Numbered from the stretch's first letter, positions 7,534 through 20,757 are shown. The stretch: DNA of 20,757 nucleotides from an uncultured Bdellovibrionales bacterium (GCA_964396225.1 CAYNEL010000013.1:1-20757); one strand, 5' to 3'. Translations and numbers: made by a program. The notes: a model not told the origin generated them from the letters alone.

Positions 7534-8349
7534 TCATCCCCCATTCCTGTACGCCTCCAGATTGAGGACGCTGTCCGAGATGGTCGGCAGATGATGGCCG
7601 CCATGCATGATGACATACGTCATGTTCTTGCCGCGCTCCTTGGCGAGATACATGGCGGCATCCGCACGCTTCAGCGCCTCCTGCCAAACCGTACCGGCAT
7701 GCAACGCGTCTTCCGCGGTACAAAGGATGTCGGTGATCCCGATGCTGGCAGTCACCCCATGCTCACACAACAGAGGGTGCGAGCGCAAGACGCCCATCAG
7801 TCCCCCGACACGCCTGATGGTGATCGAGAGGTCGATATTCGGGAGGAGCACGGCGAACTCATCCCCGCCCAGGCGCGCGGCACAGTCGTTGTCCCGGATG
7901 AAGCTGTTGAGCACTCCGGCGACGGTACGGAGGATATCATCGCCCTTTGCATGGCCGTGGCGATCATTGACGGCTTTGAATCCGTCCAGATCGAGGATGA
8001 GGAGCGACGCGCCGCCGACGCGGATTCTCCGATTGTGGCGGTCCGCCTCTTCCCAGAGCCTCCGGACCTTGGCCATCATCCTCGTAAAGTGGGACTCCAG
8101 CCCTTTGCGATTATAGAGGCCTGGCAGAAGTGTGTCGTGTTGCAGGGCTTGTTCGAGTCTGTGGATGATTTTCCGATCCTGTGAGCGCTCATCCATGAGA
8201 AGCCGGACTTGCCGAAAGAGCTCATCGCAGTATCCTCTGCAGGCGCGCTTCTCGCGGCGCAACCTCACATTGCCAACAGCCAGCCATGACACGACACTGA
8301 GTACGACCAGTGCGGAGCTTACGAGACCAATCCATGCAAACGTAGACAT
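7534..8349 (-). CDS. membrane-anchored diguanylate cyclase (GGDEF domain, intact GGDEF and RxxD I-site)
   Basis: Start at ATG 8349 preceded by AGGAGG (plus 8357-8362) at 7-nt spacing. The track's upstream extension MVKMFSFF... lacks an RBS. N-terminal TM helix (FAWIGLVSSALVVLSVVSWLAV), linker, then GGDEF domain LLILDLDGFKAVNDRHGHAKGDDIL...RDNDCAARLGGDEFAVLLP (RxxD I-site 5 residues before GGDEF). Confidence 0.88.
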   Translation of the reverse strand: MSTFAWIGLVSSALVVLSVVSWLAVGNVRLRREKRACRGYCDELFRQVRLLMDERSQDRKIIHRLEQALQHDTLLPGLYNRKGLESHFTRMMAKVRRLWEEADRHNRRIRVGGASLLILDLDGFKAVNDRHGHAKGDDILRTVAGVLNSFIRDNDCAARLGGDEFAVLLPNIDLSITIRRVGGLMGVLRSHPLLCEHGVTASIGITDILCTAEDALHAGTVWQEALKRADAAMYLAKERGKNMTYVIMHGGHHLPTISDSVLNLEAYRNGG

Positions 8350-8420
8350 GCTCTTGCCTCCTGTCCGAGGATTTCCAAAAAGCCTAAAAAGGGTCTGTGG
8401 GATGTCAAAGAAACTAAACA

Positions 8421-8449
8421 TTTTTACCATAAAAAATAAGCCTTGTCAA
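8421..8449 (-). promoter_or_regulatory. candidate promoter of GGDEF gene: -35 TTGACA (in terminator loop, plus 8444-8449), 17-nt spacer, -10 TAAAAA (plus 8421-8426)
   Basis: Consensus -35 with correct spacing to an A/T-rich -10; would place the TSS about 55 nt before ATG 8349, giving a leader containing the AGGAGG SD. Confidence 0.45.
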
Positions 8450-14589: not shown

Positions 14590-15685
14590 CTAAGCGCGCC
14601 GGGCGGCTTCGCGACGGAGATGGGCCTCCATGAAAGGCCGGAGCTCGCCGTCCAAGACATCGTGCACCTGGGGCGTTTCGTGCTTGGTGCGGTGGTCCTT
14701 GGCGAGGGTGTAAGGGTGGAGGACGTAGGAGCGGATCTGGTTGCCCCATTCAGCGCTCTTGTGCTCACCCTTGAGTTCACGCTCCTTGGCCGACTGTTCC
14801 TCCTTGGCCCGCTGAAAGAGCTTGGCCTGGAGGAGGCGCATGGCCTGCTCGCGGTTTTGGATCTGCGAACGCTCGCTCTGACAGGCCACCACGATCCCGG
14901 TGGGCAGGTGGGTCAGACGTACGGCGCTTTCGGTCTTGTTGACGTGCTGTCCGCCGGCCCCGCTCGAGCGGTAGGTATCCACCCTGAGATCCTCGGGCCG
15001 GATCTTGACCGTCTCGGCGTCATCGATTTCCGGCACCACCTCCACTAGGGCAAACGACGTCTGGCGGAGCTGATTGGCGTTGAAGGGCGAGAGTCGCACG
15101 AGACGGTGGACGCCTGCCTCGCTCCGGAGGTAGCCGTAAGCGAACTCCCCCGCCACCGAGAAGGTGACACTTTTGAGGCCGGCCTCAGTGCCGCGCGATT
15201 CGTCGAGGATGTCCGTCCGGAAGCCTTCGCGTTCGGCCCAGCGGAGGTACATCCGGAGGAGCATCTCCGCCCAGTCTTGGGCGTCCACCCCGCCGGCACC
15301 GGCGTGAATGGAGACGAGGGCGTCGTTCCGGTCGTACTCCCCCCCGAGGACGGCCTCGATTTCGAGAGCGTTGGCCTGGCGATCCAGGTCGGAGAGCTGT
15401 CCCAAGACATCCCGTTCGTCTTCGGGCGAGGCGGCCAGTGCCGAGAGCTCCTCGGCCGTCTTCACCGCCTCGGCGAACTCGTCGAAACGGCGAAGCGTCC
15501 CCTTGAGCCCTTCGAGCTCCTTCATCACGGCCCCGGCCCGCTTCGGGTCGTTCCAGAATCCAGGATCGGCGGCCAAGGCTTCGAGCTTGTGAATGTGCGT
15601 TTCCTTGGAGGCACGGTCAAAGATAGTCCTGCAAGCGCAGGAGTTTCTCTTTGAGGCTAGCGATCATCGGAGCCGCGCTTTCCAT
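14590..15685 (-). CDS. prfB: peptide chain release factor 2, expressed by programmed +1 ribosomal frameshift (segments 15685..15620 and 15618..14590)
   Basis: Frame 0 from ATG 15685 encodes MESAAPMIASLKEKLLRLQDYL then in-frame UGA within TAT CTT TGA C (the classical RF2 shift site, minus strand = plus 15625..15616). +1 frame continues DRASKETHIHKLEALAADPGFWNDP... through SPF (RLSPFNANQ) and GGQ (SGAGGQHVNKTES) motifs to the stop at 14590. The ORF track only reports the post-shift frame from an internal TTG. Confidence 0.9.
15616..15630 (-). other. RF2 autoregulatory frameshift site (AGGAC UAU CUU UGA C)
   Basis: Identical UAU CUU UGA C core to the E. coli prfB recoding site, with a GGA SD-like element a few nt upstream. 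Confidence 0.85.
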
Positions 15686-15939: not shown

Positions 15940-17037
15940 CTACTTGGCGAGCTCGGCGTCAATGGCCTGCTTCAGCTGGTCGGCCCCGACCGCCCCGCCG
16001 AAGAAGGTCCCGCCCACAAAGGTCCCGGGAGTACCCGAGATGCCAAACTTCTCACCCTCAGTCTTGTCGGCGTTCACCTTCTCGAGGTGCTTTTTGGAAT
16101 CGAGACATTCGTTGAAGGTGGCGGTGTTCAATCCGAGCTGACGGGCGTAGGTCTTGAAGGAACCCACGCCGGTGGTCTTGCCCCACTCGTCCTGCTTCTG
16201 GAAAAGGAGGTCGCCGTACTCGAAGAATTTGCCCTGATCGTTGGCGCAGGCTGTGGCCAGCGCGGCGCTCTCGGCCTGGAGATGGAAGGGCAGCGGGTAG
16301 TGCTTATAGACGTAGAGCACCTTGTCCTTGTACTCCTGAAGGAGCGGCTTCAGCTCAGTGTGGAGCGCCCGACAGAAGGGACACTGGTAATCGGAGTATT
16401 CGATGATCCGCACTTTGGCGTCCTTGTTCCCCCACACCAGATCGCCCTCGCCCACTGGTGGCAGTTCGAGGTATTTGCCGGCGGACATGCCGAGCTTGCT
16501 GGCGTCGAGGAAGTACCAGCCGTTCTCCTGCTTCTCAAAAAGCTGTTCGGCCTGGGCGAAGATACTCGTCTTCTCCACCTCGGGGGCGAAAAAGAAGGCT
16601 GGCACCGAAATGACCTCGGCCGCCTCGCGGAGAGACTTGCCGTCGGCGGTGTCGATGTCCACTTCCTTGGCCTCAAGCGTAGGCATCACCCGCCGGAGCG
16701 AGAGGAGGGCCTGGCTCGGGTCACAGTTCTCGCAGTCGGCGGTATCGGTCAGGACCTTGACCGAGACCTTGGGGTCGGCGTACGCCACCCAGGTCTTGCC
16801 GGCCATCTCGACCACGTCGGCCTTCTTGAGGGCCCGCTCCGAGTAGCCGCGGCCGCCGAAGAGCTGGACCACGTCCACGAAGAGGCTCCCCAGGAATAGG
16901 CCGCCCAGCACAATGGCGAGCGCTGTCAGGTTCTTCAACTGCTTGTCTTTCTTCTCCTCGGGCGAAAGCATCGCCCGTTCTTCCTCCGTCGCCGCCGTTT
17001 CCGCCTTGTGTTCCTCCGGTTGCATGTGTTCGGACAT
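15940..17037 (-). CDS. membrane-anchored DsbA-family thiol:disulfide oxidoreductase (thioredoxin fold, CPFC active site)
   Basis: Start at ATG 17037 (MSEHMQPEE...). N-terminal TM (LTALAIVLGGLFLGSLFV), C-terminal DsbA-like domain with IIEYSDYQCPFCRALH and conserved cis-Pro region (GISGTPGTFVGG). The track start at 17130 would overlap the upstream gene in another frame. Confidence 0.8.
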   Translation of the reverse strand: MSEHMQPEEHKAETAATEEERAMLSPEEKKDKQLKNLTALAIVLGGLFLGSLFVDVVQLFGGRGYSERALKKADVVEMAGKTWVAYADPKVSVKVLTDTADCENCDPSQALLSLRRVMPTLEAKEVDIDTADGKSLREAAEVISVPAFFFAPEVEKTSIFAQAEQLFEKQENGWYFLDASKLGMSAGKYLELPPVGEGDLVWGNKDAKVRIIEYSDYQCPFCRALHTELKPLLQEYKDKVLYVYKHYPLPFHLQAESAALATACANDQGKFFEYGDLLFQKQDEWGKTTGVGSFKTYARQLGLNTATFNECLDSKKHLEKVNADKTEGEKFGISGTPGTFVGGTFFGGAVGADQLKQAIDAELAK

Positions 17038-17098
17038 AGGTATCGTACCCAAAACGTTGAAGTGGATTAGAACCGACCGCCCATCCTCCACGCACCGC

Positions 17099-17431
17099 TT
17101 AGAAACCGCACGCGCCACCGCTCGCGCCACCGCTCGGGGCCATCACCGCCTCGCCCTTCTCCAGGGCTTCCTGTTCCATGGCGATGAGGTCATAGCGGGC
17201 CGGGTCCTCGACCAGGTAGTCCTGGAAGCCGATGGTAAGACGCGGCGCAGCCTCCGTCTTGGCCACGATGCCGAGACAGAAAGCGATGGCCGCCACGAGC
17301 ACGAAAACACGCTTGTCCTCCGCCAGGAGGGCGGAGAGGCCGCGCCGCACGGCGGCAACACCCTTCTCCGCGGCCGCTTTGGCGCGCGCCGCCGGGGTTT
17401 CCACGGAAGCGTTCTTTTCCAGTTCGTCCAT
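17099..17431 (-). CDS. small membrane protein (110 aa, single TM, Cys-containing) upstream of DsbA-like gene
   Basis: TM VFVLVAAIAFCLGIVA, Ala/Lys-rich N-terminus, C-terminal GGASGGACGF. The overlapping ORF 17143..17529 is Arg/Pro/Ser-rich (GC artefact) and rejected. Confidence 0.5.
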   Translation of the reverse strand: MDELEKNASVETPAARAKAAAEKGVAAVRRGLSALLAEDKRVFVLVAAIAFCLGIVAKTEAAPRLTIGFQDYLVEDPARYDLIAMEQEALEKGEAVMAPSGGASGGACGF

Positions 17432-17525: not shown

Positions 17526-18359
17526 TCAATAGAACAAGTGGGTGGCCCCCTCGGCCTCGGCCTGCATGAGGACGTCCCGGACGATCTCCAGGAGTTCGGC
17601 CGGGGTGACGCTCGACTTCACCAGGAAAGCCTTGGCCCCGAGCTCGAGGCCGCGGTCGATGTCCTCCTGGCGGTTCAAGTTCGAAAAGACGATGATGGGC
17701 AGGCGCGGTAGGATTTCCGCCTGCCGGAGTTCGGTCATCACCTCGAATCCATCCTTGATCGGCATGACGATGTCCATAATGACGAGCTGGGGCCGTTCCT
17801 CCTTGATGCGCTGGAGGGCCTCCTCGCCATTGGCCGCGGTGAGCACCCTGCAGCCTTCCTTCTCGAGCGACTTCATGATGAGTTCCTGGAGCATCACCTC
17901 GTCCTCCACCACGAGGAGGGTCTTGTTCTTGAGGATCTTTTTGGCGTGAGCCCGGTAGAAAGGATCGGTTTTGCGCTCCTCGGCCATCTTGGCCATGATG
18001 AGGGCTTCTACTTTGGCGGTCAGGGCCGGTCCGTCGAACTGACCGGTCACTAGGCGGTCAGTGGCGCCGATGCGTTCGAGGAGCGCCACGGCTTCGGGTG
18101 TCTCCTGCTTCAGGACGCCGATGACGGGGATGGGCGGACGGCCGTCGGCGCGGGCCAGGGCCGCGGTGAAAGCGGCTTCGTCTAGGAGCGGCAGCTCGAC
18201 CGACAAGAGGATGAGGCTCGGTTCGAAGTCAGCGATCTTCTTGAGGCCGCTCGCCCCGTCCGCCACCGTCTCGATGGCATACCCGTACTGGTGCAGCGTG
18301 CGGGAGAGAAGCTCCACCACCATGGCATCCGCCTCGAAAATGAGGATTTTCTTGTGCAT
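17526..18359 (-). CDS. tandem receiver protein: N-terminal pseudo-receiver (lacks phospho-Asp, T/S and K) + C-terminal canonical REC; no output domain
   Basis: REC2 has D (QLVIMDIVMP), S (IIVFSNLN), K (AFLVKSS). REC1 keeps the fold (KKILIFEADAMVVELL...) but has Ser at the phospho-acceptor position (SLILLSVELP), V/L at the T/S position (VIGVLKQ) and T at the Lys position (DRLVTGQ). Confidence 0.85.
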   Translation of the reverse strand: MHKKILIFEADAMVVELLSRTLHQYGYAIETVADGASGLKKIADFEPSLILLSVELPLLDEAAFTAALARADGRPPIPVIGVLKQETPEAVALLERIGATDRLVTGQFDGPALTAKVEALIMAKMAEERKTDPFYRAHAKKILKNKTLLVVEDEVMLQELIMKSLEKEGCRVLTAANGEEALQRIKEERPQLVIMDIVMPIKDGFEVMTELRQAEILPRLPIIVFSNLNRQEDIDRGLELGAKAFLVKSSVTPAELLEIVRDVLMQAEAEGATHLFY

Positions 18360-18371
18360 ACGGGAGGGGGA

Positions 18372-19190
18372 TTATTCGGAAGCGGCGGGCACCCCGAGCG
18401 TCTCCCCTTTCTTGGCCAAAAGCTGTCTGACCCGCACCACCGCCTCCGAGAGGGTGACGTTTGATTTGACGATGAACTCGGTGGCGCCAAGCTCCTTGGC
18501 CCGCTCGAAATCGCGTTCCTGACTCAGGTTGGAGAAGATCACGATGGGCGTGAGGTCGAACGTCCGGTCGGCCCGCAGCTTCGCCAGGGCCTCGAAGCCG
18601 TCCGACTGGGGCATCACCACGTCGAGGAGAATGACGTCAGGACTGGTCTCGATCGCCTTCTTGACCGCACCCGCCCCGTCCTGGGCGAGCATGACGGTGA
18701 AGCCCTCTTCGGTGAACTTCTTCTGGAGCAACTCCTGGAGGAAAGGGTCGTCCTCGACCACGAGGATGGACGTACCCGCGTGGGCGGGGGCGGCGGCCGA
18801 GACGGGTGCCTCGTCTGGGAGGTATTTGTGGACCTTCTCGAGCACCTGCTCGGGGCTGAAATCGGCCTTGATGAGATAGTCTTTGGCGCCGAGCGAAAGT
18901 ACGCGGTCGATCTCCACCGGCTGACCAGAGTTTGAGATGACCACGACCGGGATCTTGGACAGCGTCCCGTCTTTTTTCATCCGTTCCAGGATCTCGTAGC
19001 CGTTCATACGCGGCAGGAGGATGTCGAGGAGGAGCAGGTCCGGGCGCCATTCCGAGAGGTGGGCAAAACCGCTTTCCCCGTCTTCGCGGAGCTCGGCGAC
19101 GTAGCCTTCTTCTTTCAGCTTCTCGACCAGGATCTCCCCGAGCACGCGCTCGTCTTCGATGACCAGGATTTTCTTCGGTTCTCCGGGCAT
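18372..19190 (-). CDS. tandem receiver protein REC-REC (both canonical), no output domain
   Basis: REC1: ILVIEDE..., DLLLLDILLP, VVVISNS, DYLIKA; REC2: ILVVEDD..., VILLDVVMP, IVIFSN, EFIVKS. 12 nt from next gene's start. Confidence 0.88.
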   Translation of the reverse strand: MPGEPKKILVIEDERVLGEILVEKLKEEGYVAELREDGESGFAHLSEWRPDLLLLDILLPRMNGYEILERMKKDGTLSKIPVVVISNSGQPVEIDRVLSLGAKDYLIKADFSPEQVLEKVHKYLPDEAPVSAAAPAHAGTSILVVEDDPFLQELLQKKFTEEGFTVMLAQDGAGAVKKAIETSPDVILLDVVMPQSDGFEALAKLRADRTFDLTPIVIFSNLSQERDFERAKELGATEFIVKSNVTLSEAVVRVRQLLAKKGETLGVPAASE

Positions 19191-19203
19191 AGGAATTGTC
19201 TGG

Positions 19204-20076
19204 TTAGCGGGTAGTCGGATCAGGGGTCTTCATATTGGGCACGGTGAAGAAAAAGGTAGTGCCTTTGCCTTCCTCGGTCTCGAACCAGATGCGGCCGCCG
19301 TGGCGTTCGATGATGGTTTTGGCGATGAACAGCCCGAGGCCCGAACCGTCGGTCTCGATCTTCATGGCGGCGGAAGAGCGGAAGAAACGGCTGAACATCT
19401 TGGACTGGTCGGCGCGAGCGATGCCGATGCCGGTATCGGCCACACTGCAGCGCACACCGTCGCCCTCGCGGTCGAGGCGCACCGTCACCGTCCCACCCGC
19501 CAGGGTGTACTTGACCGCGTTCTCAATGAGGTTCTGGAGGGCCGAGCGCATCTTCTCCGGATCGATCAGGGCCACCGGTAGGTCGGCCTCGGGCTCGACA
19601 TAGACCAGACTGACGTCGCGGTCGGAGGCCGGCCCCTTGAAATCCTCGACCACGGAGGCCACGATGTCCGGGAGGCGGAGAGGGAAGAACTGGTACCGGA
19701 ACTTGCCGGCCTCGATGCGACTCACGGTGAGGAGGTCGTTGATGAGGCGGATCATGCGCTCGTTGGACTCGAAGCCCTTGCGCACCAGGGATTTCTGCTC
19801 GTCCGAGAGCGGCGAGCGTTCGTCCTCGAGGAGCATGCTGAAGATCCACTTGACCGCCGAAAGCGGCGTGCGGAGCTGGTGGGCCGCCACCGAGATGAAT
19901 TCGGACTTGGTCTTGTCGAGCTCGCGCAGACGCTCGTTGGCCCGGGAAAGCTCGAGATCCTTGCGCACCAGCATGCGCGAGGCCTGGTCGAGCTCCTGGT
20001 TGATGCGCCGGAGGTCGTCGAGCTCGGGTTCCGAGCGGAGCGTGTCGGTCATAAGGGGTTCAGTCGCCGAGGACAT
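19204..20076 (-). CDS. cytoplasmic histidine kinase (coiled-coil + HisKA + HATPase_c; no TM, no sensor domain)
   Basis: H-box EFISVAAHQLRTPLSAV, N-box LIENAVKYT, G1 DTGIGI, G2 GSGLGLFIAKTII. Start ambiguous (ATG 20094, 20076 or 20052, all SD-less); 20076 chosen, overlapping the FIST gene stop by 17 nt. Confidence 0.85.
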   Translation of the reverse strand: MSSATEPLMTDTLRSEPELDDLRRINQELDQASRMLVRKDLELSRANERLRELDKTKSEFISVAAHQLRTPLSAVKWIFSMLLEDERSPLSDEQKSLVRKGFESNERMIRLINDLLTVSRIEAGKFRYQFFPLRLPDIVASVVEDFKGPASDRDVSLVYVEPEADLPVALIDPEKMRSALQNLIENAVKYTLAGGTVTVRLDREGDGVRCSVADTGIGIARADQSKMFSRFFRSSAAMKIETDGSGLGLFIAKTIIERHGGRIWFETEEGKGTTFFFTVPNMKTPDPTTR

Positions 20077-20757
20077 AGAGGACGATGGTTTCATTATGGA
20101 AAGTGGTGTTGCAACGTTCGATATGGCGCGTCTCGCCGGAAAGCGGCGCCTGTTCGCCGTACGTATAGAAGCCGATGAGCGGCACGTCGTGGCCGATGAC
20201 GTCCTGGATGGCCCGAATCTCGTCGCCGGCGTCCTCGCCGAAAAGCTTCTTGCGGGCGATGCAGTTGAAGACGATCAGTCCCCGGACCGGAGCCCCTTGG
20301 AGCGCCTGGAGGGCCTGGCCCGCGGCGATGCGTGCCATCTCGATGGCTTCTTTCTTACTGCCGATCATGAGCCGGATCTCGGCCCCCTCGGGCACCGCAG
20401 CGGCGCAGGTGATGGCGCCCTGCTCGTTGACCGAGAGCGGGTCACGGATGAGGTAGTCGTCGCTTTTAGGATCACGGATGCCCAAGGGATAGGTGATGGC
20501 CAGTTTGGCCAGGGTGTCGGCCCTGAGTTCGTCGGCGTAGCTGCCGAAATAATCCTCGTAGATGGAGATGGCGGGCTTGCCGTCCACCTCGTGGAGAATC
20601 GAACCTTCGGAGCGAGTGACCTTCATGGGCAGACCAATGGGGGCCCAGCCGTGGCGCACCCCGATGCCGAACTTGAGGGGGCCGGTCATCCCGAGGCCGG
20701 CCACGGCGCCCGAATACACCTGACCGTTCCAGTACTGGAAAGTCTGTTTGAACTGGA
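20060..20757 (-). CDS. FIST-domain sensor protein, C-terminal portion (gene continues past window end)
   Basis: FIST_C signatures: LIVFNCIARKKLFG (F-x-C-x-x-R), PLIGFYTYGEQAP, TTFHNETIVLYVLG. The reading frame stays open upstream of the track's GTG to the window edge (...FKQTFQYWNGQVYSGAV), so the gene is 5'-truncated by the window. Confidence 0.75.
   Translation of the reverse strand, partial: QFKQTFQYWNGQVYSGAVAGLGMTGPLKFGIGVRHGWAPIGLPMKVTRSEGSILHEVDGKPAISIYEDYFGSYADELRADTLAKLAITYPLGIRDPKSDDYLIRDPLSVNEQGAITCAAAVPEGAEIRLMIGSKKEAIEMARIAAGQALQALQGAPVRGLIVFNCIARKKLFGEDAGDEIRAIQDVIGHDVPLIGFYTYGEQAPLSGETRHIERCNTTFHNETIVLYVLGD

What the first reader, a model, noticed from the sequence alone, without database searches (positions are those of the whole stretch)
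17526..20757. FIST sensor - soluble HK - two output-less tandem-receiver proteins (one with a pseudo-receiver): a signalling cassette with no identifiable output
Four co-directional, tightly spaced genes (gaps -17, 13 and 12 nt) encode a FIST-domain protein, a sensor-less cytoplasmic HisKA/HATPase kinase, a REC-REC protein and a pseudoREC-REC protein. None carries a DNA-binding, enzymatic or other effector domain. The architecture suggests the separate FIST polypeptide provides the input to the kinase, and that phosphate is distributed over three functional receivers. The receiver proteins could act as phosphate sinks or branch points, or through protein-protein contacts as single-domain receivers do in some systems. 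The degenerate receiver could be a docking module. This combination (separate FIST + HK + REC-REC + pseudoREC-REC) is not a textbook two-component system and I cannot name a described system with this composition.
Basis: partly seen in the sequence, partly recalled or inferred. Interest (0 to 1): 0.7.

Follow-up and report, generated by a model that had tools for sequence, protein, structure and literature searches.

The report
FIST–kinase–double-receiver signalling cassette of Parcubacteria
The four genes are a real signalling operon, and its first three genes (a stand-alone FIST sensor-like protein, a histidine kinase and a regulator made only of two receiver domains) recur together across the tiny-genome Parcubacteria; each part resembles systems already described (NosP-type sensors, tandem-receiver regulators), so it is a new variant and not a new kind, though its kinase has an unexplained change at a catalytic residue.

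Summary
On the minus strand lie a FIST_N/FIST_C gene (cut by the contig end), a 282-296 aa HisKA/HATPase kinase with no sensor or membrane segment, a REC-REC protein and a pseudoREC-REC protein, with the stated spacings and no output domain.

A separate FIST protein feeding a sensor-less kinase is a described system (NosP-NosK/NahK). Output-less tandem-receiver regulators are also described (FrzZ; DrdR, which is pseudoREC-REC).

New here:
- The window is a Parcubacteria (CPR) contig.
- FIST-HK-REC·REC is a vertically inherited cassette: 46 of 49 related loci with enough flanking DNA carry all three genes on one strand.
- FIST is the most conserved part, while the kinase's input region varies: soluble, 2-TM, or periplasmic sensor plus binding protein.
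- The fourth gene is a lineage-restricted duplicate of the regulator whose first receiver lost Asp, Ser/Thr and Lys.
- All 70 cassette kinases carry Gln next to the phospho-His, where Glu/Asp is needed for autokinase activity in tested kinases.

Most likely FIST tunes the kinase/phosphatase balance and the receivers act through protein contacts. Ligand and target are unknown. Verdict: new variant of a known kind, moderate interest.

The parts
20060..20757 (-). 3' two-thirds of the stand-alone FIST_N+FIST_C protein gene. It is cut by the contig end; the full length is 402 aa (P0001).
   Evidence: Pfam gives FIST E 1e-18 and FIST_C E 3e-34. The NosP model scores 90 bits, E 1.5e-25, over profile positions 8-353 of 368, below the cut-off of 450. 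More than 2100 homologues were found, about 400 aa each, all FIST-only, and the named ones are Parcubacteria. The AF2 model has pLDDT 84.8, and the nearest solved fold is the FBXO22 FIST domain, E 3e-13. Residues invariant across the FIST proteins aligned here (C336, R339, H391, Y370-G-E372, GGxxGD) are kept.
19204..20076 (-). Cytoplasmic HisKA/HATPase_c histidine kinase with no sensor domain and no membrane segment. Alternative starts lie at 20094 and 20052.
   Evidence: Pfam finds only HisKA (E 4e-17) and HATPase_c (E 5e-31). No hydrophobic segment is present. The closest solved homologue is T. maritima HK853, E 4e-41. The H, N, G1, F and G2 boxes are all present.
19867..19881 (-). H-box core H66-Q67-L-R-T70. 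The residue after the phospho-acceptor His is Gln, not Glu/Asp; the Thr at +4 needed for phosphatase activity is kept.
   Evidence: The translation was verified. H-Q is found in all 70 cassette kinases that have a detectable H-box. It aligns to H260-E261 of HK853. E-to-Q and E-to-A changes at this position abolish kinase activity but not phosphatase activity in CrdS, HK853 and NtrB (PMC3510030).
18372..19190 (-). REC-REC response regulator with no output domain. Both receivers are catalytically complete; the acceptors are D56 and D190.
   Evidence: Pfam finds Response_reg twice, E 3e-46. The active-site columns E/D-D, D, S/T and K are kept in both receivers in nearly all (at least 58) of the 62 orthologues aligned; the few departures are three Ser-to-Thr changes, two acidic-pair substitutions (D to E, D to N) and one N-terminally short ORF. 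The acceptor residues were verified.
17526..18359 (-). pseudoREC-REC response regulator, a diverged duplicate of the gene upstream. The N-terminal receiver is dead (A10, S53, Leu, Thr); the C-terminal receiver is intact (acceptor D196).
   Evidence: It aligns colinearly to the REC-REC protein at 33% identity, E 3e-43. The active-site columns were checked. The AF2 model shows a full (beta-alpha)5 N-domain. Only two sequences with this pseudo-receiver were found in the 5.8-billion-protein search.
17099..17431 (-). Neighbour, not part of the conserved core: a 110-aa single-pass membrane protein with no family match.
   Evidence: It has no Pfam or NCBIfam hit and one hydrophobic segment. A homologue was found only in L003 and in same-organism contigs.
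15940..17130 (-). Neighbour, not part of the conserved core: a membrane-anchored DsbA/thioredoxin-like protein.
   Evidence: Pfam gives Thioredoxin_4 E 2e-33 and DSBA E 7e-17. It is next to the cassette only in this lineage and in L003.

Best explanation
This is the Parcubacteria version of an accessory-sensor two-component system. The conserved unit has three genes, inherited vertically together:
- a cytoplasmic stand-alone FIST protein, a distant relative of NosP;
- a HisKA/HATPase kinase;
- a regulator made only of two functional receiver domains.

In the window's lineage the regulator gene was duplicated, and the first receiver of the copy decayed into a pseudo-receiver.

Proposed mechanism:
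1. FIST binds a small cytoplasmic ligand of unknown identity (heme and/or NO in proteobacterial NosP). This step is inferred.
2. FIST contacts the DHp/CA core of the kinase and shifts its balance between autokinase and phosphatase activity. This is inferred by analogy with NosP-NosK.
3. Phosphoryl groups go to, or are removed from, three acceptor aspartates: D56 and D190 of the REC-REC protein and D196 of the pseudoREC-REC protein. The residues are shown; the transfer is inferred.
4. With no output domain, the regulators act by phosphorylation-dependent protein-protein contacts, as FrzZ and DrdR do. The pseudo-receiver serves as a fixed docking or dimerisation surface, as in PleD and DrdR. This step is inferred and the target is unknown.

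Every cassette kinase has Gln instead of Glu/Asp next to the phospho-His. The kinase is therefore probably a weak autokinase or phosphatase-biased on its own, which would make the ever-present FIST partner important for switching it. This last point is inference.
For: Domain content.

Conservation of the cassette:
- 282 related stretches were found in species-representative genomes, and the best 80 are all Patescibacteria/Parcubacteria MAGs.
- FIST, then HK, then REC·REC lie on one strand in 46 of 49 loci with enough flanking DNA.
- FIST and soluble HK genes abut or overlap, from -35 to +27 nt.
- The three proteins co-diverge, with distance-matrix correlations of 0.86-0.90.

FIST identity:
- It is colinear with the NosP profile, E 1.5e-25.
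- It has the FIST fold.
- It keeps the residues that are invariant across the FIST proteins aligned.
- Stand-alone FIST genes outside CPR also sit next to signalling enzymes: a PAS kinase in Calothrix and a nucleotide cyclase in Aliiroseovarius.

Published biochemistry:
- NosP binds and inhibits the adjacent sensor-less NosK (PMC12570481). See also PMC6769237 and PMC8846402.

Receivers and kinase:
- Both receivers are catalytically complete in nearly all of the 62 orthologues aligned; the few departures are conservative or involve one truncated ORF.
- The kinase keeps His, T+4 and the N/G1/F/G2 boxes.
- RR2 is a colinear paralogue of RR1 with a folded pseudo-receiver.

Precedents for output-less regulators:
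- DrdR and FrzZ act through protein contacts (PMC13507683, PMC13535131).
- The PleD pseudo-receiver works as an adaptor (PMC12632262).
Against: - No experiment exists on any member of this clade.
- FIST is not a NosP equivalog (90 bits against a cut-off of 450), so the ligand cannot be transferred from NosP.
- In 17 loci the kinase has its own periplasmic sensor plus a binding protein, so FIST is not simply the missing sensor.
- FIST is the most conserved of the three proteins (median identity to the window 56%, against 47% for HK and 43% for RR). That pattern is more typical of an output or core component than of an input.
- Gln at H+1 would, by published mutagenesis, abolish autophosphorylation, which questions step 3.
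- The mirror-tree partial correlations do not favour a FIST-HK link (0.42) over a FIST-RR link (0.36).
- No target of the regulators is indicated by the gene neighbourhood.
Confidence: 0.55

Rival explanations
1. FIST is the conserved downstream partner or effector, not the input. The variable kinase does the sensing, the phosphorylated REC·REC protein binds FIST, and FIST carries out the response, either as a protein-recognition module like eukaryotic FBXO22 or as an enzyme.
For: - FIST is the most conserved component and the kinase input region is the variable one.
- 17 loci have kinases with their own periplasmic sensor and an adjacent substrate-binding protein.
- In the alternative gene order, REC·REC lies 11-24 nt upstream of FIST.
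- The nearest solved folds are a substrate-recognition domain (FBXO22), then Toblerone-fold hydrolases and chorismatase.
- This reading would solve the 'no output' puzzle.
Against: - All experimental work places stand-alone FIST proteins upstream of the kinase.
- In the published accounts read here, FIST-FIST_C is treated as the sensory module both of the multidomain c-di-GMP enzymes that carry it and of auxiliary proteins of two-component systems (PMC8846402).
- In the commonest arrangement FIST abuts the kinase gene, not the regulator gene.
- The partial correlations do not favour FIST-RR.
Confidence: 0.15
2. The kinase works essentially as a FIST-regulated phosphatase. The receivers are phosphorylated by acetyl phosphate or by another kinase, and the cassette sets their dephosphorylation rate.
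For: - Gln at H+1 is found in all 70 cassette kinases, while the phosphatase Thr at H+4 is kept.
- E-to-Q and E-to-A mutants of CrdS, NtrB and HK853 are kinase-dead but phosphatase-competent (PMC3510030).
Against: - The phospho-acceptor His and all ATP-binding boxes are strictly kept, which argues for selection on autophosphorylation.
- Other kinases in the same CPR loci also lack an acidic H+1 residue (H-K in L012 and L020), so this lineage may use another catalytic arrangement.
Confidence: 0.15
3. The receiver proteins are phosphate sinks or buffers for a pathway whose real output regulator is encoded elsewhere in the genome.
For: - There are three functional receivers per kinase in this lineage and no output domain.
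- Second kinase/receiver pairs exist near the cassette in some genomes (L004).
Against: - The REC·REC gene is kept with the kinase in 46 of 49 loci and co-diverges most tightly with it (r 0.90, partial 0.61). That is the signature of a cognate main partner.
- No regulator with an output domain recurs in the neighbourhood.
Confidence: 0.1
4. The four signalling genes are juxtaposed by chance and have no functional link.
For: None beyond the absence of experiments.
Against: - The same strand, order and tight spacing are conserved across dozens of divergent genomes.
- The three proteins co-diverge.
Confidence: 0.02

Closest known systems
NosP-NosK-NosR / NosP-NahK / NosP-VpsS systems of Burkholderia, Pseudomonas, Legionella and Vibrio
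   Same: A stand-alone FIST_N+FIST_C protein is encoded next to, and co-directional with, a kinase that has only DHp and CA domains, with a response regulator in the same operon. The FIST protein binds the kinase and modulates its autophosphorylation (PMC12570481, PMC6769237, PMC8846402).
   Different: The FIST here is only a distant homologue (90 bits against the 450-bit NosP cut-off; about 30% identity to non-CPR FIST proteins). Heme or NO binding is unknown. The regulator is REC·REC, with no c-di-GMP enzyme or Hpt relay. The kinase has H-Q instead of H-E/D. The host is a CPR bacterium.
DrdR of Xanthomonas campestris (tandem-receiver orphan regulator)
   Same: It is an output-less protein with an N-terminal pseudo-receiver and a C-terminal functional receiver, the same layout as the window's 277-aa protein. 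It acts by binding PilB/PilT and FleQ (PMC13507683, PMC13535131).
   Different: DrdR is an orphan with no adjacent kinase. [quoted passage not shown] Direct sequence comparison with DrdR was not possible with these tools.
FrzZ of Myxococcus xanthus
   Same: It is an output-less regulator described as a dual response regulator with two receiver domains (search terms matched in PMC4546325 and PMC4719450). That both its receivers are phosphorylatable and that it acts through localisation and protein contacts to control motility polarity is from my own knowledge, not read here.
   Different: FrzZ is fed by a CheA-type kinase of a chemosensory pathway (own knowledge), not by a HisKA kinase with a FIST partner.
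PleD of Caulobacter (REC-pseudoREC-GGDEF)
   Same: A receiver is paired with a pseudo-receiver that serves as an adaptor for phosphorylation-driven dimerisation (PMC12632262).
   Different: PleD has the order receiver then pseudo-receiver and carries a diguanylate cyclase output.
HK853-RR468 of Thermotoga maritima
   Same: These are the closest solved structures to the kinase (E 4e-41). RR468 is essentially tied for the best match to the first receiver of REC·REC (E 1e-19, against 9.9e-20 for the top hit, a CheY-annotated chain of 6azr). The regulator is a stand-alone receiver with no output domain.
   Different: HK853 has H-E at the H-box, a membrane sensor region and no FIST partner. RR468 has one receiver.

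Membership tests
FIST domain proteins (Pfam PF08495 + PF10442) | Matches to FIST_N and FIST_C above the gathering thresholds | tested here: met
   FIST scores 68 bits (cut-off 23.2) on the truncated part. FIST_C scores 118.6 bits (cut-off 28.5). Full-length homologues carry both domains.
FIST domain proteins (Pfam PF08495 + PF10442) | FIST three-dimensional fold | tested here: met
   The AF2 model has pLDDT 84.8 and pTM 0.86. The best solved match is the FBXO22 FIST domain, E 3e-13, TM 0.5-0.6.
NosP (NCBIfam NF041558, equivalog) | Score at or above the curated cut-off of 450 bits | tested here: not met
   P0001 scores 90 bits, P0028 99 bits and P0075 89 bits. The matches are colinear over profile positions 8-353 of 368. 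This makes it a homologue, not an equivalog.
NosP-type accessory-sensor two-component system | A stand-alone FIST gene adjacent and co-directional to a kinase with no sensor domain, with a regulator in the operon | tested here: met
   for the window. The arrangement is conserved in 46 of 49 informative loci. It matches the architecture described in PMC12570481.
NosP-type accessory-sensor two-component system | FIST protein binds heme and responds to NO | not testable with these tools
   The heme-ligating residues of NosP could not be retrieved because the key papers are not held. Cys336 and His391 are invariant across the FIST proteins aligned and are kept here, but their role is unknown.
NosP-type accessory-sensor two-component system | FIST protein physically binds the kinase and changes its autophosphorylation | not testable with these tools
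   Support is indirect only: abutting or overlapping genes and co-divergence.
NosP-type accessory-sensor two-component system | The regulator carries a c-di-GMP-metabolising output or feeds an Hpt relay | tested here: not met
   Both regulators contain only Response_reg domains. The same holds for the 62 orthologues aligned.
HisKA-family bifunctional histidine kinase | Phospho-acceptor His, Thr/Asn at H+4, and N, G1, F and G2 boxes | tested here: met
   H66, T70, NLIENAVKYT, DTGIGI, FSRFFR and GSGLGL are all present. HisKA and HATPase_c score above their cut-offs.
HisKA-family bifunctional histidine kinase | Acidic residue (Glu/Asp) immediately after the His, within the motif H-E/D-x-x-T/N, which is required for autokinase activity | tested here: not met
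   The residue is Gln67 in the window and Gln in all 70 cassette kinases. It aligns to E261 of HK853. The requirement is shown in PMC3510030.
Phosphorylatable receiver (REC) domain | Acidic pair, acceptor Asp, Ser/Thr and Lys | tested here: met
   This is met for both receivers of the 272-aa protein and for the C-terminal receiver of the 277-aa protein.
Pseudo-receiver | Receiver fold that lacks the residues needed for phosphotransfer | tested here: met
   The N-terminal domain of the 277-aa protein has A10, S53, Leu and Thr at the four sites. It is still recognised as Response_reg and models as a (beta-alpha)5 fold.
Output-less tandem-receiver regulators (FrzZ / DrdR class) | Two receiver domains in one polypeptide and no other domain | tested here: met
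Output-less tandem-receiver regulators (FrzZ / DrdR class) | Acts by binding target proteins such as PilB/PilT or FleQ | not testable with these tools
   No candidate target recurs in the neighbourhood.

The most novel reading that the evidence does not exclude
The FIST-HK(H-Q)-REC·REC cassette may be a Parcubacteria-wide signalling device in which the kinase, lacking its own catalytic acid, is inactive or phosphatase-only unless the FIST protein completes or unlocks it. Alternatively, FIST may itself be the regulated output. Under this reading it would be a main sensory pathway of these reduced, host-dependent bacteria and would control behaviour, for example pili or attachment, purely through receiver-protein contacts.
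Probability: 0.15. Interest if true: 0.7.

Novelty: new variant of a known kind. Interest (0 to 1): 0.45.

Why it matters
Parcubacteria and other CPR bacteria have very small genomes and, to my knowledge, few regulatory genes, and almost nothing is known about how they sense their surroundings or their hosts. A three-gene signalling unit that has stayed together across many of their lineages, with a FIST protein about 56% identical between distant members, is a good candidate for a core sensory pathway of the group. All its parts are small soluble proteins, so they can be tested in vitro without cultivating the organism.

The invariant Gln beside the phospho-histidine is a natural version of a mutation that kills kinase activity in model kinases. 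It offers a direct test of whether an accessory FIST protein can substitute for, or gate, that catalytic function.

The lineage-specific duplicate with a dead first receiver is a young example of how a pseudo-receiver arises from a working one.

Tried and rejected
- Exact-sequence look-up of the 296-aa kinase found nothing, because the collection calls a shorter start. Look-ups of the two regulators and of P0001 gave only 1.7-4.2 kb contigs of the same organism. The upstream context therefore had to come from these contigs and from the 84% relative L003.
- Sequence searches of the PDB with the FIST fragment and with a 24-sequence profile found no solved relative. Only the fold search did.
- I tried to find which residues of NosP bind heme, to test for their presence here. 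The two primary papers are not held and the papers that are held do not say.
- Full-text searches for FIST together with Parcubacteria or candidate phyla radiation, and for Patescibacteria two-component systems, found no description of this cassette.
- The mirror-tree analysis meant to decide whether FIST co-evolves more with the kinase or with the regulator was not discriminating (partial r 0.42 against 0.36).
- The promoter and terminator scan gave nothing usable on the minus strand within the cassette.
- I considered predicting a FIST-kinase complex. The structure tool returns no interface measures and accepts only unmodified sequences, so I did not attempt it.
- The weak ThiG hit on the 277-aa protein is below its cut-off and overlies the receiver. 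I rejected it as noise from a shared fold.
- I considered a link to the DsbA-like gene and the 110-aa membrane protein downstream. I rejected them as part of the unit because they accompany the cassette only in this lineage.

Full report
**1. What is in the sequence**

The finding lies on the minus strand. Four ORFs follow one another.

- FIST ORF. It runs off the window end and stops at 20060. Its 231 translated residues match Pfam FIST (E 1e-18, last third of the model) and FIST_C (E 3e-34).
- Kinase, 20076-19204. Other possible ATGs are at 20094 and 20052; gene callers chose 20076 on one contig of the same organism and 20052 on another.
- 272-aa protein, 19190-18372.
- 277-aa protein, 18359-17526.

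The kinase matches only HisKA and HATPase_c, and each of the last two proteins matches only Response_reg, twice. NCBIfam adds nothing above any curated cut-off. A hydropathy scan finds no membrane segment in any of the four proteins.

The window appears to be a whole 20,757-bp NCBI contig: the exact 277-aa protein is on record from NCBI with a longest contig of exactly that length. That explains the truncation of the FIST gene. The full-length FIST protein of the same or a nearly identical organism is P0001, 402 aa.

**2. The receivers**

The 272-aa protein (RR1) has two complete receivers, with acceptor aspartates D56 and D190. The 277-aa protein (RR2) has an intact C-terminal receiver (D196). 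Its N-terminal receiver carries Ala, Ser53, Leu and Thr where the second acidic residue, the acceptor Asp, the Ser/Thr and the Lys should be.

RR2 aligns colinearly with RR1 over its whole length: 33% identity, E 3e-43, N-domain with N-domain and C-domain with C-domain. It is therefore a diverged duplicate of the neighbouring gene.

[quoted passage not shown] It is a folded pseudo-receiver and not a remnant. In both proteins the two receivers leave only a short linker and a tail of about 10 residues, so there is no room for an output domain.

**3. Where it comes from and how conserved it is**

The FIST fragment has more than 2100 database relatives. The best 120 are about 400-aa (a few about 313-aa) FIST-only proteins, 60-84% identical over the fragment. 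The named ones are Parcubacteria/Paceibacterota MAGs: Moran-, Kaiser-, Taylor-, Zambryski- and Nomurabacteria.

A pattern scan of one genome per species found 282 related stretches. The 80 best are all Patescibacteria MAGs, a few with evidently wrong taxon labels. I translated all six frames of these loci and searched them with the window's proteins.

- The recurrent unit is FIST, then a kinase, then ONE REC·REC protein of about 255-290 aa, all on one strand.
- Of 49 loci with at least 4.5 kb downstream and 1.2 kb upstream of FIST, 46 have both a kinase and a receiver protein in place.
- The three exceptions, plus one short locus, belong to a distinct subgroup of orphan FIST genes.
- An alternative order, REC·REC - FIST - (binding protein) - kinase, occurs in about a dozen loci. 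A few loci have one or two single receivers instead of the fused pair.
- The pairwise distance matrices of the three proteins correlate at r = 0.86-0.90, so the cassette has been inherited as a unit.
- Nearly all of the 62 REC·REC orthologues aligned keep the catalytic residues in both receivers. The few departures are three Ser-to-Thr changes, two acidic-pair substitutions and one N-terminally short ORF.

The fourth gene is not part of the conserved unit. The closest relative, L003 (FIST 83% identical), has the same four genes followed by the same small membrane protein and DsbA-like gene. No other locus has a second regulator. A search of 5.8 billion proteins found only the window's own protein and an 81% relative with the pseudo-receiver. 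The next hits are ordinary REC·REC orthologues with the Asp. That search scores only the 8000 candidates sharing the most words with the query, so rare distant copies could have been missed.

**4. The kinase varies, FIST does not**

The partner kinases fall into four forms.

| Form | Loci | Extra features |
|---|---|---|
| Soluble, about 270-310 aa (as in the window) | 30 | FIST and kinase genes abut or overlap (-35 to +27 nt) |
| 320-365 aa with N-terminal membrane segments (two in most) | 17 | none noted |
| About 425 aa | 7 | four of them preceded by a small conserved ORF |
| 560-680 aa with a periplasmic domain of about 230-260 aa between two membrane helices | 17 | often preceded by a substrate-binding protein gene |

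The periplasmic domain of the longest form is dCache plus HAMP in the one locus that carries annotation. The binding-protein genes next to these long-kinase loci are ABC_sub_bind in 12 loci and Peripla_BP_6 in 4.

FIST is the most conserved of the three proteins. Median identity to the window's copy is 56%, against 47% for the kinase and 43% for the regulator. Mean pairwise distance is 0.34, against 0.51 for each of the other two. FIST is therefore not merely a stand-in for a lost sensor: it stays even where the kinase senses something outside the cell.

**5. What FIST is**

- Full-length P0001 matches the NCBIfam NosP model colinearly (profile positions 8-353 of 368, E 1.5e-25) but at 90 bits against a cut-off of 450. 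It is a distant homologue, not an equivalog.
- Outside CPR the best matches are about 30% identical stand-alone FIST proteins. In two of three contexts inspected these sit beside a signalling enzyme: a PAS kinase in Calothrix and an adenylate/guanylate cyclase in Aliiroseovarius.
- No solved structure is detectable by sequence.
- An AlphaFold2 model (pLDDT 84.8, pTM 0.86) matches the FIST domain of human FBXO22 (E 3e-13). More weakly it matches Toblerone-fold cyclic amide hydrolases and chorismatase.
- An alignment with non-CPR FIST proteins shows that residues invariant across them are kept: the GGxxGD motif, C336, R339, Y370-G-E372 and H391. A shared ligand-binding chemistry is plausible but unidentified.

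**6.

The H-box of the kinase reads A-A-H66-Q67-L-R-T70-P-L.

- The closest solved homologue, HK853 of Thermotoga (E 4e-41), aligns its H260-E261 to this H-Q.
- The HisKA motif is H-E/D-x-x-T/N.
- Substitutions of the acidic residue abolished autophosphorylation and left phosphatase activity intact in CrdS (E372Q/A/G/D) and HK853 (E261A); NtrB E140Q/A gave the matching kinase-negative, phosphatase-competent phenotype, without in vitro confirmation (PMC3510030).
- Gln occupies this position in all 70 cassette kinases with a recognisable H-box, including the long membrane forms.
- The His, the Thr at +4 and the ATP-binding boxes are kept.
- Among the few other kinases in the same loci, one has H-E, two have H-K and two have H-Q. 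The Calothrix FIST-adjacent kinase has H-E.

Two readings remain. Either CPR kinases use another catalytic arrangement, or this kinase is weak or phosphatase-biased on its own. I cannot decide between them in silico.

**7. Comparison with what is known**

The logic of a stand-alone FIST protein plus a kinase with only DHp and CA domains plus a regulator in one operon is that of nosRPK in Burkholderia pseudomallei. There NosP binds NosK and inhibits its autophosphorylation. NosP-NahK and NosP-VpsS work in the same way (PMC12570481, PMC6769237, PMC8846402). The cassette differs in three respects: the regulator has no c-di-GMP enzyme, the FIST falls below the NosP threshold, and the H-box is unusual.

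Output-less tandem-receiver regulators are called 'widespread ... yet poorly understood' (PMC13535131). DrdR of Xanthomonas has exactly the pseudoREC-REC layout. It works by binding PilB/PilT and FleQ (PMC13507683). FrzZ is the classic two-receiver case. PleD shows a pseudo-receiver acting as a dimerisation adaptor (PMC12632262).

I found no paper describing this cassette in CPR bacteria.

**8. Verdict**

- Best explanation (confidence about 0.55): a NosP-like accessory-sensor two-component module, ancestral within Parcubacteria. FIST tunes the kinase/phosphatase balance, and the tandem-receiver proteins act through protein contacts. A recent duplication gave a pseudoREC-REC paralogue.
- Rivals not excluded: FIST as the conserved downstream partner (0.15), a phosphatase-only kinase (0.15), and the receivers as phosphate sinks (0.10).
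- It is a new variant of a known kind.
- Interest is moderate (0.45). It rests mainly on the breadth and strength of conservation in a poorly understood group with reduced genomes, and on the natural H-Q kinase, which is directly testable with purified proteins.

Noticed in passing
window 15616-15685 (- strand), joining ORF 15576..14590: The RF2 gene (prfB) has the classic programmed +1 frameshift. A short ORF starts at ATG 15685 and runs into CTT (15622-15620) TGA (15619-15617) C. An AGGA lies just upstream, and the +1 frame continues into the long PCRF/RF-1 ORF.
   Followed up: partly
window 7534-8430 (- strand): A 298-aa protein has one N-terminal hydrophobic segment and a GGDEF domain with an intact RLGGDEF motif, so this Parcubacterium seems to make c-di-GMP. 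It lies 9 kb from the cassette. No link was tested.
   Followed up: no
loci L007, L009, L010, L019, L021, L023, L047, L069, L077 (cassette between uvrB and uvrA); L022, L040, L041 (both uvrB and uvrA after the cassette); L013 (uvrB after the cassette, contig ends before any uvrA): In about 16 other Parcubacteria genomes the FIST-HK-REC·REC cassette sits inside or beside the nucleotide-excision-repair genes, often as tgt-uvrB-[cassette]-uvrA-uvrC on one strand. recG is nearby in 10 further loci. This could be plain synteny or a functional hint. It is not seen in the window itself.
   Followed up: partly
L088 31-342 and L003 9588-9893 (upstream of FIST in the same organism and in its closest relative): A protein of 101-103 aa with a weak thioredoxin-like [2Fe-2S] ferredoxin hit lies about 110 nt upstream of FIST in this lineage. 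Together with the DsbA-like gene downstream, the cassette here is flanked by redox-type proteins. Neither is conserved elsewhere.
   Followed up: partly
L012 6655-7449 (-), L020 2060-3664 (+), L051 607-1575 (-), L064 124-1095 (-): Other histidine kinases in Parcubacteria loci also lack the acidic residue after the phospho-His: H-K in two and H-Q in two. The departure from H-E/D may therefore be a wider CPR trait.
   Followed up: partly
L032 7983-10464, L077 6794-9194; L066, L075, L083: Two loci carry two FIST genes in tandem. A distinct FIST subgroup, with N-termini such as MAIIASVGSSH / MSIFASAGSSH, is encoded with no kinase or receiver gene within the fetched locus (roughly 0.8-8 kb upstream and 6.7-8 kb downstream).
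   Followed up: partly
model m2f10cbd5ea23 (P0001): After FBXO22, the predicted FIST fold matches Toblerone-fold cyclic amide hydrolases (cyanuric acid hydrolase, barbiturase) and chorismatase at E about 1e-5 to 1e-4. This hints that FIST may derive from, or still be, a small-molecule-binding enzyme-like scaffold.
   Followed up: no
L004 11460-18357: On a 1-Mb Parcubacteria contig the FIST gene is followed by a Peripla_BP_6 protein, a dCache-HAMP kinase and a REC·REC gene. Then come an RRM-domain protein gene on the opposite strand and a 63-aa ORF, followed by a second pair: a HisKA_7TM kinase and a single receiver. Signalling genes are clustered there.
   Followed up: no
record titles of L010, L015, L018, L022 and others: Several MAGs carrying this Parcubacteria-type cassette are titled 'uncultured Candidatus Saccharibacteria' or 'Gammaproteobacteria'. 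These are probably mislabelled bins.
   Followed up: no
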